Positions 1-3,628 of a DNA stretch of 33,147 bases are shown here, in pieces (the first letter of the stretch is position 1; the number at the start of each line of letters is the position of its first letter). The translations under genes were made by a program, and so were the position numbers. Under the pieces are notes generated by a model, which was given only the letters and a program-made list of their open reading frames with translations, was not told the origin of the DNA and searched no databases. This stretch comes from a virus, in UHGV virus genome UHGV-0236124, one strand, 5' to 3'.

Positions 1-2
1 GG

Positions 3-125
3 CATAACCTGAATCTGAGGCAGCACCTGGCACGGCTGGGACGGAAGTCGCTGTCGTTCTCAAAATCGGTGGAGCTGCATGACAAAGTCATCGGGCATTA
101 TCTGAACATAAAACACTATCAATAA
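3..125 (+). CDS. 3' end of an ORF truncated by the window start (last ~40 codons, product unknown)
   Basis: Frame 3 is open from the window edge to TAA at 123-125; no start codon in window; product not recognisable. Confidence 0.2.
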
Positions 126-146
126 GTTGGAGTCATTACCCGTGAT

Positions 147-404
147 ATGAAGAAGTACCTGGGAGAGATGAAGCGTCTGGCTGATGGGGGAGAAATGAAT
201 TTTGATGGCTATCTGGATAAGATGTCACATCTGGTGAATGAAGGAACGCTCGATCCTGATATTTTAAGCAAAATGCGAGATGCTGCACCACAATTAATTA
301 GCTTCGCGAAGTCGTTTGACCCAACCTCAAAGGAAGAGATTAAAATACTTACAGACACTTCTAAATTAATTTATGATTTGTTCGGGGTTAAATCGGAGAA
401 ATAA
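147..404 (+). CDS. hypothetical small protein (85 aa)
   Basis: ORF track; ATG start; followed by hairpin plus T-run terminator at 446-473; no recognisable family. Confidence 0.4.
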   Translation: MKKYLGEMKRLADGGEMNFDGYLDKMSHLVNEGTLDPDILSKMRDAAPQLISFAKSFDPTSKEEIKILTDTSKLIYDLFGVKSEK

Positions 405-473: not shown

Positions 474-1124
474 CTCTATCAATGCTATTAGCAGGGAGAT
501 ATATCACCAGAGTTTAATGTGTGATTTTTTATTTATCGTCGAACCTGGATTGTTTATCATTGGCCTTAACAAAGTTAACGGCTAATAAGATTATTTCCAT
601 CACTTCGTGAGAGCTTCATGCCTTGAGAGGATCTCAATTTTCTTTTGCAATGAGACAGGCGCTTCCTGTTGTTATGGTATAGTACCCCGCTATTGAGCCT
701 CCTGAATAGTGATGCTGAATAACATAACCCCATGATATATCGATAAAATAATCTCTACATTTGAAAATGCACGGTAATTCTGAAATGCAAAAAATCAACC
801 AAACCAGCGCAATGCCTGAAAAAACTGACGTTCACTGGAGTGGTCGGTTTAGCGTTGCACCAATGCTCGATAGGATGTACCGTTTTTGAAAAACAACTAG
901 TTATACACTTTGTGGGAGCCTATTGGGAACCTGTTATTCTTAGAAAGCATCATTTGCTCATCACTTCAATTGACCATGATTAAAGCCAGCTATAAACTTG
1001 ACAAACAAGGTAACTAGTTGCTTAGGCCTAAGTGGGCACACCATAAGAAGCTCATGTTGGTGATGAAGCAACCCATGAAGTATCGAGAATAATTACAAAG
1101 TTCACTATCTTTGAGGTTTCTTAT

Positions 1125-1697
1125 ATGTTTTGCGAAGAAAAAGTAGCTCAAATGGCTGCATACCTACTTCTTAAGCGAGGTGGGCGCATGGCATATCTGA
1201 AATTGATGAAGCTGCTCTATCTGTCTAACCGCAAGTCGATTTTGAAGCATGGCAGGATGATCGGCGAAGATAGCCTTTACTCTATGAAATTTGGTCCAGT
1301 CATGTCGAATACGCTGAACTTGATTCGTGGTAAGGCTGAAGGTATTGGTGACTACTGGTACAACCTGATAGAGACGAACGGGCATGATGTGTTGTTGCGT
1401 TCAGATCCGAGGGAAATGGATGCAGACGAGGTCTTTGATGAGTTGAGCCGTGCAGATATCCGGATTTTAGATGAAATCTATTCTCTGTATGGGCATATGA
1501 ACCGATTTGATCTCGCAAACATGACGCATTTAGAAAGCGTTTGTCCAGAGTGGCACAATCCTGGCAATTCTCGTAAGCCTATAGACCTGAAAGAAATGCT
1601 GATCAGTGAGGGTAAAAGCGAGGATGAGGCTAATCGTATAATTGGCAAAATGGAAGAATCTCAGAAACTTAAGGAATTTTCTTTGCAATTATCATGA
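1125..1697 (+). CDS. Panacea / DUF4065 domain protein (SocA/PanA-like antitoxin-type domain)
   Basis: 190 aa; stretch AYLLLKRGGRMAYLKLMKLLYLSNRKSILKHGRMIGEDSLYSMKFGPVMSNTL resembles DUF4065 as I recall it; stop overlaps next start (ATGA at 1694-1697). Confidence 0.6.
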   Translation: MFCEEKVAQMAAYLLLKRGGRMAYLKLMKLLYLSNRKSILKHGRMIGEDSLYSMKFGPVMSNTLNLIRGKAEGIGDYWYNLIETNGHDVLLRSDPREMDADEVFDELSRADIRILDEIYSLYGHMNRFDLANMTHLESVCPEWHNPGNSRKPIDLKEMLISEGKSEDEANRIIGKMEESQKLKEFSLQLS

Positions 1698-2113
1698 CGG
1701 ATTATCAGCCATACAGGAAAGGAACTGTGCTTGCCCCAACTGGGCCATGCAATCATCTTCATGTGATTTGTAATGATCCTGTTTATTACCCCGTTAACGA
1801 TTGTTATTGTGTTTTAGTTGTTAATATTTCTAGTATCAAGGATGGTGTCCCCCACGATCCGTCTTGCGTCTTGAATTCTGGTGATCATCGCTTTATCAAG
1901 CATCCAAGTTATGTTGTTTACGCTGAAGCTATAATTTGGCGAGTGGATAACATGGTTAGAAAGCAGCGATCGGGTGAGATTTCCGTTCATGATGATATGC
2001 CAGAAGCTACATTCAATAGAATTCTGGACGGTTTTGATATATCTGATGAAGTTACGCCAAAGAACCTTAAATTTAAAAATAAATATTGCGTATCATCTAT
2101 TGATGATGAGTAA
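1694..2113 (+). CDS. hypothetical protein translationally coupled to the Panacea-domain gene (candidate toxin/effector partner)
   Basis: 139 aa ORF; ATGA overlap with upstream gene; no recognisable domain. Confidence 0.5.
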   Translation: MTDYQPYRKGTVLAPTGPCNHLHVICNDPVYYPVNDCYCVLVVNISSIKDGVPHDPSCVLNSGDHRFIKHPSYVVYAEAIIWRVDNMVRKQRSGEISVHDDMPEATFNRILDGFDISDEVTPKNLKFKNKYCVSSIDDE

Positions 2114-2152
2114 ACAACAGGAATTGTTTCGGTATAGCTTCTGGAGTTTTCT

Positions 2153-2326
2153 ATGGAAGATCAAAAAGCAACCAAGCCACAGGTTAAGTTCGACACAATG
2201 AAAGCATTCGCAGGTATGGGGGCTGCTGTTGAAGTTCTGATGAAGGCTGCTCCTAATGCGTTCACTCACGCTACTGTCTCTGGTAAAGAGCAGCAGGGTA
2301 AGCTTCGTCGTCGCAAAGCAGCATGA
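2153..2326 (+). CDS. small protein (57 aa), third gene of the cassette
   Basis: Hand-translated (below the 60-aa cutoff of the ORF track): MEDQKATKPQVKFDTMKAFAGMGAAVEVLMKAAPNAFTHATVSGKEQQGKLRRRKAA; GGAG 6 nt upstream of ATG; terminator immediately downstream. Confidence 0.4.
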   Translation: MEDQKATKPQVKFDTMKAFAGMGAAVEVLMKAAPNAFTHATVSGKEQQGKLRRRKAA

Positions 2327-2345
2327 TCATAGCTGGTGCTTTTTG

Positions 2346-2372
2346 AAAACCCGCCTTTAGGCGGGTTTTTTC
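2346..2372. terminator. bidirectional rho-independent terminator between convergent genes
   Basis: aaaacccgcc-ttta-ggcgggtttttt; A-run on one side and T-run on the other, so it can terminate both the plus-strand cassette and the minus-strand gene ending at 2374. Confidence 0.6.
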
Positions 2373-2373
2373 T

Positions 2374-2655
2374 TTAGTGATGTTCTTTGCCCTTCTGTTT
2401 GCCTGTTCTGACCTGTTCCCACTCGATACGTCCTTCTTCTCGTCTTTTGTCTATGTATTCCGCAAGATCCTGAATATTGATGCAACGTTTTGCTTTTTGT
2501 GATGTACCGATGCGATATGTAGGTACAGGCAACTTACAAGCGTTTGCTTTTGCTTCTGCTGTGGCTGGACTCATACCAAAGTATTTTTGACTAACTGCTG
2601 AGAGTTCAATGTTTGGGGTATTGAATTCAGCCATCAGTAAAAACAAGGTATTCAT
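2374..2655 (-). CDS. excisionase-like / PrtN-family small DNA-binding protein
   Basis: 93 aa; N-terminus MNTLFLLMAEF... and KLPVPTYRIG motif are typical of PrtN/Xis-like phage proteins as I recall them. Confidence 0.55.
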   Translation of the reverse strand: MNTLFLLMAEFNTPNIELSAVSQKYFGMSPATAEAKANACKLPVPTYRIGTSQKAKRCINIQDLAEYIDKRREEGRIEWEQVRTGKQKGKEHH

Positions 2656-2691: not shown

Positions 2692-3507
2692 TTACTTATT
2701 CATTTCAATAATATTATTTTCTATCATTGATTTATTTAAAACCAAAGAAGGAGCAAGATGGTTGTCTATTTTAAACAATGCATAACTTTTAAACTGTTGG
2801 TGATATCCGTAACTAATAAGGATGCTAGAAAAATCTCTTAATTCATCTTCTTTTAAAAAATTAAAATGAAATGGGTTGTCACCATTTATGAACAATGAAA
2901 CATCTATTATGCAGTATTTCTCTCCGTTGTCATTTGCATAGAAAAAAATATAAGACATTCTGTTTGTTAAGACAATGCCATTAAATTTTCTTATGTCTGT
3001 AGCTATTTTGTTTTCCATGTTTGGTGCTACATATTTATTTTCAGAAATACATTTAATTTCATCTCCAGATGTCGTGATTATATAAAAATGAAACTTATCA
3101 GAAATATCTAACTTAACTACGCCATCATTATTGTAAAGGCTGCTAAATTTTGGTGGTTCAACTTTTAAAGAATCATAGTTCTTTAAAAGAAGAGGAGAGT
3201 CAAATTTAATAACTTGTAGTATCCCTTTACCTTCAACCTCCATATTGATTGAAGATATAGCAATTGCATTATCTCTTTTATTATTCAGGATTATGGTTGA
3301 TATATGCATGTCATATATTCTACTTGCATTTGCTGAATACGACACTGTCACCTTTTTTGATATTTTTTGCACGCCAAAATATATAGTGAAGGCAGCGGCA
3401 AGAATAGATAAGAATTTAATGTCAAATAAGGACCATAGCCACATTAGTTGCTCAATTGCTTCAGAGTTAATCATTTGCTTTACCATTATCGCTGTAATAC
3501 AACACAT
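2692..3507 (-). CDS. AT-rich hypothetical membrane-anchored protein (moron)
   Basis: ORF 2692..3525; N-terminal hydrophobic helix LMWLWSLFDIKFLSILAAAFTIYFGV; strongly A+T-rich codon usage unlike neighbours; start uncertain (ATGs at 3507, 3486, 3474; the 3525 start is TTG); no clear SD. Confidence 0.5.
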   Translation of the reverse strand: MCCITAIMVKQMINSEAIEQLMWLWSLFDIKFLSILAAAFTIYFGVQKISKKVTVSYSANASRIYDMHISTIILNNKRDNAIAISSINMEVEGKGILQVIKFDSPLLLKNYDSLKVEPPKFSSLYNNDGVVKLDISDKFHFYIITTSGDEIKCISENKYVAPNMENKIATDIRKFNGIVLTNRMSYIFFYANDNGEKYCIIDVSLFINGDNPFHFNFLKEDELRDFSSILISYGYHQQFKSYALFKIDNHLAPSLVLNKSMIENNIIEMNK

Positions 3508-3628
3508 GTGTGTATATATACGCAATGCAATTATTTTGCAAGTGCTTCATTTACTATCAATAGCTACGTCACGTTATTGTTTAATGGTTCTTTATAGGGG
3601 CGGCAATAGTTAAAATTATCGCTTCCGT

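What the first reader, a model, noticed from the sequence alone, without database searches (positions are those of the whole stretch)
998..2372. Three-gene accessory cassette led by a Panacea/DUF4065 protein: candidate novel toxin-antitoxin or defence module
A DUF4065/Panacea-type protein (1125-1697) is translationally coupled (ATGA overlap) to an unrecognisable 139-aa protein (1694-2113), followed by a 57-aa ORF with its own RBS (2153-2326) and a bidirectional terminator. A perfect 12-bp palindrome CTTAGGCCTAAG (1021-1032) sits about 95 bp upstream, as expected for an autoregulated TA operator. Panacea-domain antitoxins are reported to pair with many unrelated toxin families, so the unrecognised partner could be a new toxin or effector. 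The cassette occupies the position next to the excisionase-like gene where an integrase would be expected.
Basis: partly seen in the sequence, partly recalled or inferred. Interest (0 to 1): 0.75.

Follow-up and report, generated by a model that had tools for sequence, protein, structure and literature searches.

The report
Prophage PanA–PanT toxin–antitoxin gene pair
This is a two-gene toxin–antitoxin module, a Panacea-domain antitoxin paired with a MazF-fold toxin, carried as swappable cargo beside the attachment site of an E. coli prophage; the gene-pair family was already catalogued and one relative validated in 2022, so it is a new member of a known kind.

Summary
Gene 1 is a Panacea/DUF4065 protein (PF13274, E 1.8e-18).

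Gene 2 is 57% identical to WP_101821906.1. Kurata et al. 2022 list that protein in PanT cluster T6, the cluster of the validated Pseudomonas moraviensis PanAT pair (toxic, neutralised, forms a complex, blocks translation). The toxin family is therefore already known.

The unit is two genes, not three:
- Panacea and gene 2 sit adjacent in 24 of 26 genomes and 9 of 9 phages.
- The 57-aa gene occurs only in this E. coli phage lineage and persists where other cargo fills the slot.

The palindrome is no more than chance gives and is absent from the closest cassettes. A TTGACC-17-TA(A/G)ACT promoter is conserved instead.

The integrase lies at the other prophage end, beside dusA. In the excised phage it adjoins the cassette across attP.

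Verdict: a real type II PanAT module, probably for prophage defence or addiction. Modest interest.

The parts
767..932 (+). Displaced 5' fragment of dusA (767-871) plus shared attachment-site flank. This is the left border of the prophage and the left limit of sequence shared with prophages that carry other cargo.
   Evidence: PGAP annotates a partial tRNA-dihydrouridine synthase here. The sequence is identical in strains YD786 and O157:H7 up to about window position 932 and diverges after that.
933..2140 (+). Swappable cargo segment of about 1.2 kb: promoter, leader, panA and panT.
   Evidence: The breakpoints against prophages with a different 177-aa cargo gene lie at about 932/933 on the left and about 2140 on the right, just before the gene-3 RBS. 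GC is 41-44%.
970..998 (+). Sigma-70-like promoter of the cassette: TTGACC, 17 nt, TAAACT.
   Evidence: The consensus scan scores it 9 of 12. The same TTGACC-17-TA(A/G)ACT element is present upstream of the closest cassettes in Kosakonia (L009) and Pluralibacter (L010), although the flanking sequence has diverged. Activity was not measured.
1021..1032 (.). Perfect 12-bp palindrome CTTAGGCCTAAG in the predicted 5' leader. Its function is doubtful.
   Evidence: It is present, but there are 9 such palindromes in the window against about 8 expected. It is absent from the closest homologous cassettes. The leader RNA fold is unremarkable, z = -0.37.
1125..1697 (+). panA: stand-alone Panacea/DUF4065 antitoxin, 190 aa.
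1694..2113 (+). panT: MazF/Kid/CcdB-fold toxin of PanT cluster T6, 139 aa. It overlaps the panA stop by ATGA.
2153..2326 (+). 57-aa backbone ORF (phrog_2741) of unknown function. It is probably co-transcribed with whatever cargo lies upstream and is not part of the TA module.
   Evidence: phrog_2741, E 8e-36. It is conserved together with the excisionase gene in 550 E. coli genomes, against 208 for the pair. It also occurs in phage mEp460. It is absent next to the pair in other genera.
2345..2370 (.). Intrinsic terminator hairpin shared by the convergent gene 3 (+) and xis (-) transcripts.
   Evidence: An 11-bp stem with 6 G-C pairs, a 4-nt loop and a T-run. Only sub-threshold Rfam matches occur here, of the kind generic terminators give.
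2374..2655 (-). PrtN-family excisionase gene of the prophage (context, not part of the module).
   Evidence: PF11112, E 3.1e-23. phrog_1300 'excisionase', E 1.1e-39.

Best explanation
Window 933-2140 is a self-contained two-gene type II toxin-antitoxin cargo module (PanAT). It belongs to a lambdoid prophage integrated at dusA.

A cassette-borne sigma-70 promoter (970-998) is inferred to drive a bicistronic mRNA. panA (1125-1697) encodes a stand-alone Panacea-domain antitoxin. panT (1694-2113) is translationally coupled to it through the ATGA overlap and encodes a toxin with the MazF/Kid/CcdB fold that belongs to PanT cluster T6.

By analogy with the validated T6 pair from Pseudomonas moraviensis, free PanT arrests growth by blocking translation. 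The most likely mechanism is RNA cleavage, which has not been demonstrated for any T6 member. PanA neutralises PanT by direct protein-protein binding, as the structurally related DarG C-terminal domain does with DarT.

The module sits next to attP in a slot where related phages carry other cargo. Its likely role in the lysogen is therefore abortive-infection-type defence against other phages, prophage addiction, or both. This role is inferred, not shown.

The 57-aa gene and the terminator downstream belong to the phage backbone.
For: Shown here:
- Gene 1 matches the Panacea domain.
- Gene 2 has a MazF-type fold by two independent methods applied to a model of pLDDT 92.
- Gene 2 is 57% identical to WP_101821906.1. 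Kurata 2022 Dataset S1 lists that protein as a T6 PanT paired with PanA WP_101821908.1.
- The Pantoea septica LMG 5345 locus L014 also carries the pair with the -4 overlap given in that dataset.
- Panacea and gene 2 are adjacent on the same strand in 24 of 26 species genomes spanning Alpha-, Beta- and Gammaproteobacteria; the other two loci are truncated. They are adjacent in 9 of 9 phage genomes.
- Identities of the two proteins co-vary across loci, r = 0.93, and the ATGA overlap recurs in 13 of 25 loci.
- The same pair occupies a quite different prophage position in Enterobacter, between tail genes, so it moves as a unit.
- The slot is variable: 550 E. coli genomes have gene 3 plus xis, and 208 have the pair.
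- The promoter element is conserved in three contexts.

From the literature:
- The T6 representative PanT(Pse. mor.) is toxic in E. coli, is neutralised by its PanA, co-purifies with it, and specifically blocks 35S-methionine incorporation (PMC8832971).
- Its PanA N-terminus, MIFSEQKVAQ, matches the gene-1 subfamily.
Against: - No experiment exists on this E. coli pair.
- Two other Panacea pairs from E. coli and a Salmonella phage (cluster T1) were not toxic in E. coli. T1 is unrelated to gene 2.
- Gene 2 and 59 family members give no Pfam PemK/MazF hit. A profile comparison with MazF, Kid and EndoA is insignificant.
- The family-conserved residues (H21, D55, C58, H65) are not the MazF Arg/Thr catalytic pair, so an RNase mechanism is not secured.
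- No PADLOC defence model matches. No anti-phage phenotype has been reported for any T6 pair in the papers I found.
- The promoter match is no better than shuffled sequence gives in a single scan. Only its conservation supports it.
Confidence: 0.8

Rival explanations
1. Three-gene novel defence or TA cassette. Panacea, an unprecedented effector and the 57-aa protein act together, and the 12-bp palindrome serves as an autoregulatory operator.
Against: Gene 3 does not travel with the pair in any other genus. It persists in about 340 E. coli genomes that carry different cargo. The right breakpoint lies upstream of its RBS. The effector is a known PanT family. The palindrome occurs at chance frequency and is absent from the 83-87% identical cassettes. 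T6-linked PanAs are listed as 'noNTD', and Panacea is judged unlikely to be an autoregulator (PMC10440598).
Confidence: 0.05
2. PanT uses the MazF-type barrel for different chemistry, not as an RNase. One possibility is a Cys-His-Asp or metal-dependent enzyme that modifies a translation component. Another is a CcdB-like gyrase poison.
Against: MazF-family RNases outrank CcdB in both fold searches. The T6 representative blocks translation specifically, not replication, which argues against gyrase poisoning.
Confidence: 0.12
3. The pair is an inert or decaying passenger: a TA-like gene pair with no toxicity in its native host, as reported for the cluster T1 Panacea pairs of E. coli MOD1 and phage Emek.
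For: Two enterobacterial Panacea pairs tested by Kurata et al. were 'not toxic'. There is no PADLOC match.
Against: Both ORFs are intact, and the segment matches at 98% or higher nucleotide identity in nearly all of the 208 E. coli genomes that carry it. Both proteins are conserved and co-diverge down to about 30% identity across three proteobacterial classes, with the overlap preserved. This implies purifying selection on the pair. The non-toxic T1 toxins are unrelated to gene 2, whereas the T6 representative is toxic in E. coli.
Confidence: 0.08

Closest known systems
PanA-PanT(Pse. mor.) of Pseudomonas moraviensis, PanT cluster T6 (Kurata et al. 2022, PNAS, PMC8832971)
   Same: The architecture is the same: a stand-alone Panacea antitoxin first, and a toxin of about 130-140 aa overlapping it by 1-4 nt. 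Both toxins belong to cluster T6: gene 2 is 57% identical to the listed T6 member WP_101821906.1. The PanA subfamily is the same, with N-terminus MIFSEQKVAQ against MFCEEKVAQ. That toxin was predicted by HHpred to be EndoA/PemK/MazF-like, which matches the fold found here.
   Different: This copy is carried by an E. coli lambdoid prophage next to attP, whereas the P. moraviensis pair was flagged 'NotPhage'. I could not obtain the P. moraviensis sequence, so identity to it is unknown. This copy is untested.
MazEF / Kid-Kis (PemIK) type II TA systems (Pfam PemK_toxin family)
   Different: There is no sequence-level match to the PemK/MazF profile. The antitoxin is a Panacea domain, not an AbrB/SpoVT-type MazE or Kis. 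The conserved residues are His, Asp, Cys and His rather than Arg and Thr. Gene 2 has an extra C-terminal helix at residues 122-131.
DarTG: the C-terminal toxin-binding domain of DarG (PDB 7YK3)
   Different: DarG also carries a macrodomain enzyme, and its toxin is a DNA ADP-ribosyltransferase. Here there is no macrodomain, and the toxin has the MazF fold.
SocAB type VI TA of Caulobacter crescentus
   Same: SocA is the founding Panacea-domain antitoxin. Some annotations call gene 1 'SocA family'.
   Different: The NCBIfam SocA equivalog scores 13.5 bits against a cut-off of 190. The partner is not SocB. SocA acts as a ClpXP adaptor (my own knowledge), whereas PanAT pairs tested so far act by direct binding.

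Membership tests
PanA (Panacea/DUF4065 antitoxin, Pfam PF13274) | Significant match to the SocA_Panacea profile above Pfam's gathering score | tested here: met
   67.9 bits against a cut-off of 25.7, E 1.8e-18, residues 27-137.
PanA (Panacea/DUF4065 antitoxin, Pfam PF13274) | [quoted passage not shown] | tested here: met
   The arrangement holds in 24 of 26 species genomes and 9 of 9 phages. Gaps range from -29 to +62 nt, and the gap is -4 in 13 of 25 loci.
PanA (Panacea/DUF4065 antitoxin, Pfam PF13274) | Neutralises its cognate toxin and forms a complex with it | not testable with these tools
   This needs co-expression and pull-down experiments.
PanT cluster T6 (Kurata et al. 2022) | Sequence homology to a listed T6 toxin | tested here: met
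   P0289 is WP_101821906.1, which Dataset S1 lists as T6. It is 57% identical to gene 2 over 93% of its length and scores E 2.8e-42 against the family profile. The L014 pair from Pantoea septica LMG 5345 matches the dataset's -4 overlap.
PanT cluster T6 (Kurata et al. 2022) | Predicted EndoA/PemK/MazF-like structure | tested here: met
PanT cluster T6 (Kurata et al. 2022) | Toxic on expression, with specific inhibition of translation | not testable with these tools
   This has been shown only for the P. moraviensis member.
MazF/PemK endoribonuclease family (Pfam PemK_toxin) | Match to the PemK/MazF sequence profile | tested here: not met
   Gene 2 gives no hit at E <= 1. None of 60 diverse family members hits at E <= 0.1. 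hhalign against MazF, Kid and EndoA gives probability below 1%.
MazF/PemK endoribonuclease family (Pfam PemK_toxin) | Catalytic Arg (R29 in E. coli MazF) and Thr/Ser (T52) | tested here: inconclusive
   No conserved Arg was found; the conserved residues are H21, D55, C58 and H65. By eye, 'VVNISS' lines up with MazF 'VPCTT' and 'NHLHVICNDP' with 'GHRPAVVLSP'. No significant alignment or coordinate overlay was available to confirm this.
MazF/PemK endoribonuclease family (Pfam PemK_toxin) | Cognate antitoxin of the MazE, Kis or PemI type | tested here: not met
   The upstream gene is a Panacea-domain protein.
SocAB type VI TA | SocA equivalog score, with SocB as partner | tested here: not met
   NF047745 scores 13.5 bits against a cut-off of 190. 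The partner has the MazF fold.
Catalogued anti-phage defence systems (PADLOC-DB v2) | Match of any component to a PADLOC model | tested here: not met
   No hits at E <= 1 for genes 1-3 or the two neighbouring genes.

The most novel reading that the evidence does not exclude
The T6 PanT family has at least 2,700 clusters at 50% identity and no Pfam model. It may use the MazF-type barrel with a different active site: an invariant His plus conserved Asp, Cys and His. These could form a metal centre or a Cys-His-Asp triad. The toxin would then block translation by chemistry other than MazF-style metal-independent RNA cleavage. In this prophage it would act as a phage-triggered abortive-infection effector, with Panacea as the sensor.
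Probability: 0.12. Interest if true: 0.6.

Novelty: new member of a known kind. Interest (0 to 1): 0.3.

Why it matters
The practical value is mostly in annotation:
- About 4% of complete E. coli genomes (208 of 5,426) carry this pair labelled 'Panacea domain-containing protein' plus 'hypothetical protein'. The toxin start is often miscalled, 11 codons too short.
- Linking it to the validated T6 PanAT family gives these genes a name and a testable function.

It also marks the stretch between the dusA attachment site and the 57-aa gene/xis as a cargo-exchange slot in dusA-integrating lambdoid phages. That slot is a sensible place to look for further defence genes.

The toxin family is large and has no Pfam model. 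Its conserved residues do not look like MazF's, so its biochemistry is still worth settling. None of this opens a new category.

Tried and rejected
1. Sequence searches with gene 2 gave only chance-level hits. I tried Pfam, NCBIfam, PADLOC and PDB sequences, both as a single sequence and as a profile.
2. I tested whether gene 2 belongs to Kurata's cluster T1, the cluster of the 'not toxic' E. coli MOD1 and phage Emek pairs. hhalign against Emek orf161 gave probability 0.2%, so I rejected this.
3. Residue-level mapping onto MazF by hhalign was insignificant. Catalytic-residue equivalence therefore rests on alignment by eye only.
4. I looked for a conserved operator.
   - Upstream regions of 23 homologous cassettes share no palindrome.
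   - The closest two cassettes lack the CTTAGGCCTAAG site.
5. The leader RNA showed nothing. The fold has z = -0.37 and no Rfam family reaches threshold; only sub-threshold terminator-like matches occur at 2275-2500.
6. The search for related loci with the wide alignment A3 failed for lack of a conserved stretch. It worked with A1.
7. Neither the NetFlax (Ernits 2023) supplementary files held here nor a search for the two E. coli protein accessions in the Kurata files gave a hit.
8. I could not obtain the P. moraviensis PanT sequence itself. I could not co-fold PanA with PanT, and I had no access to model coordinates to measure whether H21, D55, C58 and H65 cluster.

Full report
**Where the window comes from.** The region is 100% identical to E. 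coli chromosomes. In strain 6409 it is the left end of a lambdoid prophage of about 44 kb.
- Window 1-~140 is an IS1 end. It truncates a DUF2713 gene, whose remnant is at 147-404.
- Window 767-871 is a displaced 5' fragment of dusA, marking the attachment junction.
- The cassette follows, then a convergent PrtN-family excisionase gene at 2374-2655 (PF11112, E 3e-23; phrog_1300 'excisionase').

**Check of the observation.**
- Gene 1 (1125-1697) matches Pfam SocA_Panacea at 67.9 bits against a cut-off of 25.7.
- Gene 2 starts at ATG 1694 inside ATGA. PGAP prefers GTG 1727.
- The 12-bp palindrome exists, but the window holds nine perfect 12-bp palindromes against about eight expected.

**What gene 2 is.** It has no significant hit in Pfam, NCBIfam, PADLOC or PDB sequences. 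Its only family match is an uncharacterised PHROG.
- An AlphaFold2 model built on 48 homologues is confident: pLDDT 92.4, pTM 0.85.
- The Foldseek top 50 hits are all MazF.
- The family is large: 2,719 representatives at 50% clustering with E <= 1e-3. None of 60 diverse members hits a Pfam model.

**Link to published work.** Kurata et al. 2022 (PMC8832971) catalogued 88 toxin clusters paired with Panacea antitoxins.
- Their cluster T6 is annotated 'EndoA/PemK/MazF-family RNAses' by HHpred. It lists WP_101821906.1 from 'Yersiniaceae bacterium 2016Iso4' and a pair from Pantoea septica LMG 5345.
- My homologue P0289 is WP_101821906.1. It is 57% identical to gene 2.
- Locus L014 is the Pantoea septica LMG 5345 pair, with the -4 overlap given in the dataset. 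L013 reproduces the dataset's -1.
- Gene 2 is therefore a T6 PanT.
- The validated T6 representative comes from P. moraviensis. It is toxic in E. coli, is neutralised by its PanA, co-purifies with it, and specifically blocks 35S-methionine incorporation.
- The N-terminus the authors restored to that PanA, MIFSEQKVAQ, is the N-terminus of Pseudomonas members of the gene-1 subfamily. It is close to the MFCEEKVAQ of gene 1.
- Cluster T1 includes the 'not toxic' E. coli MOD1 and phage Emek pairs. It is unrelated to gene 2.

**The unit is two genes.**
- A Panacea gene lies directly upstream of the gene-2 homologue, on the same strand, in 24 of 26 species genomes. These span Alpha-, Beta- and Gammaproteobacteria, and the two exceptions are truncated contigs.
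- The same holds in all nine phage genomes that carry gene 2.
- The two proteins co-diverge, r = 0.93.
- In Enterobacter prophages the same pair sits between tail genes, with no gene-3 homologue nearby.
- Gene 3 plus xis occurs in 550 complete E. coli genomes, while the pair occurs in 208.
- Where the pair is absent, a different 177-aa ORF without any Pfam match fills the slot.
- The homology breakpoints lie at about 932/933 and about 2140, the latter just before the gene-3 RBS. Gene 3 is therefore backbone, and 933-2140 is the mobile cargo.

**Regulation.** A TTGACC-17-TAAACT element at 970-998 lies inside the cargo. It is conserved as TTGACC-17-TAGACT upstream of the closest cassettes in Kosakonia and Pluralibacter, although the flanks have diverged. 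More distant enterobacterial cassettes carry TTGACT-17-(C/G)ATAAT. I infer a cassette-borne promoter and a leader of about 120 nt.

**The integrase question.** The tyrosine integrase lies at the far prophage end, divergent from the intact dusA. In the circular genome of the induced phage Lys8385Vzw the order is int (-), then panA-panT-gene 3 (+), then xis (-), with about 450 bp between int and panA, where attP must lie. The cassette thus sits between int and xis beside attP, a classic cargo position. No integrase is missing.

**Mechanism and its limits.**
- Shown: domain identity, fold, family membership, conserved synteny and coupling, and cargo mobility.
- Inferred from the validated relative: toxicity through a block of translation, and neutralisation by binding.
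- Inferred from context only: a role in defence or prophage addiction.
- Not secured: RNase chemistry. The residues conserved across the wide family are H21 (invariant), D55, C58 and H65, plus S72 and Y76, not MazF's Arg/Thr. Profile alignment to MazF failed.

**Verdict.** This is a real PanAT toxin-antitoxin module and a new, untested E. coli prophage member of a family catalogued and partly validated in 2022. Interest is modest.

Noticed in passing
window 1-404: An IS1 end (1-~140) abuts the C-terminal 85 codons of a DUF2713 gene (147-404). In this strain IS1 has therefore disrupted the chromosomal gene just outside the prophage. In strain 6409 the same gene is only frameshifted.
   Followed up: partly
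L035:2781-3314 and L036:2784-3317 (same slot as window 933-2140): In roughly 340 other E. coli genomes, including O157:H7, the slot between the dusA fragment and gene 3 holds a single 177-aa ORF (WP_000956557.1) with no Pfam match. It is alternative cargo of unknown function in the same hotspot.
   Followed up: partly
window 2692-3525 (-): A 277-aa ORF (260 aa in PGAP) next to xis has very low GC (28-30%) and a hydrophobic N-terminus. It matches phrog_14996 but no Pfam, NCBIfam or PADLOC model. Related prophages carry a 3'-5' exonuclease gene at this position, so it looks like a second variable cargo gene.
   Followed up: partly
L037:18578-22106 (NZ_CP010371.1 4348577-4352105; beyond the window): The opposite prophage end carries a reverse-transcriptase gene, a SLATT-domain gene and dinI next to the integrase and the intact dusA. 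This appears to be a retron- or DRT-like defence cargo, so both ends of the prophage carry accessory modules.
   Followed up: no
window 1694-1727: RefSeq/PGAP starts gene 2 at GTG 1727 (128 aa, WP_014640052.1). This removes 11 residues that are conserved across the family and hides the ATGA overlap with panA.
   Followed up: yes
window 1694-2113 (protein residues 21, 55, 58, 65): Across 60 diverse family members H21 is invariant, and D55, C58 and H65 are at least 90% conserved. This set suggests a metal site or a Cys-His-Asp triad rather than the MazF Arg/Thr active site.
   Followed up: partly
L002-L007:3432-4453: In Enterobacter prophages the same panA-panT pair (about 73% identical) is inserted between the tail genes K (JAB/NlpC-P60) and I/J. 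It has its own upstream 14-bp palindrome, TATAGCTAGCTATA. The pair therefore moves between quite different prophage positions.
   Followed up: partly
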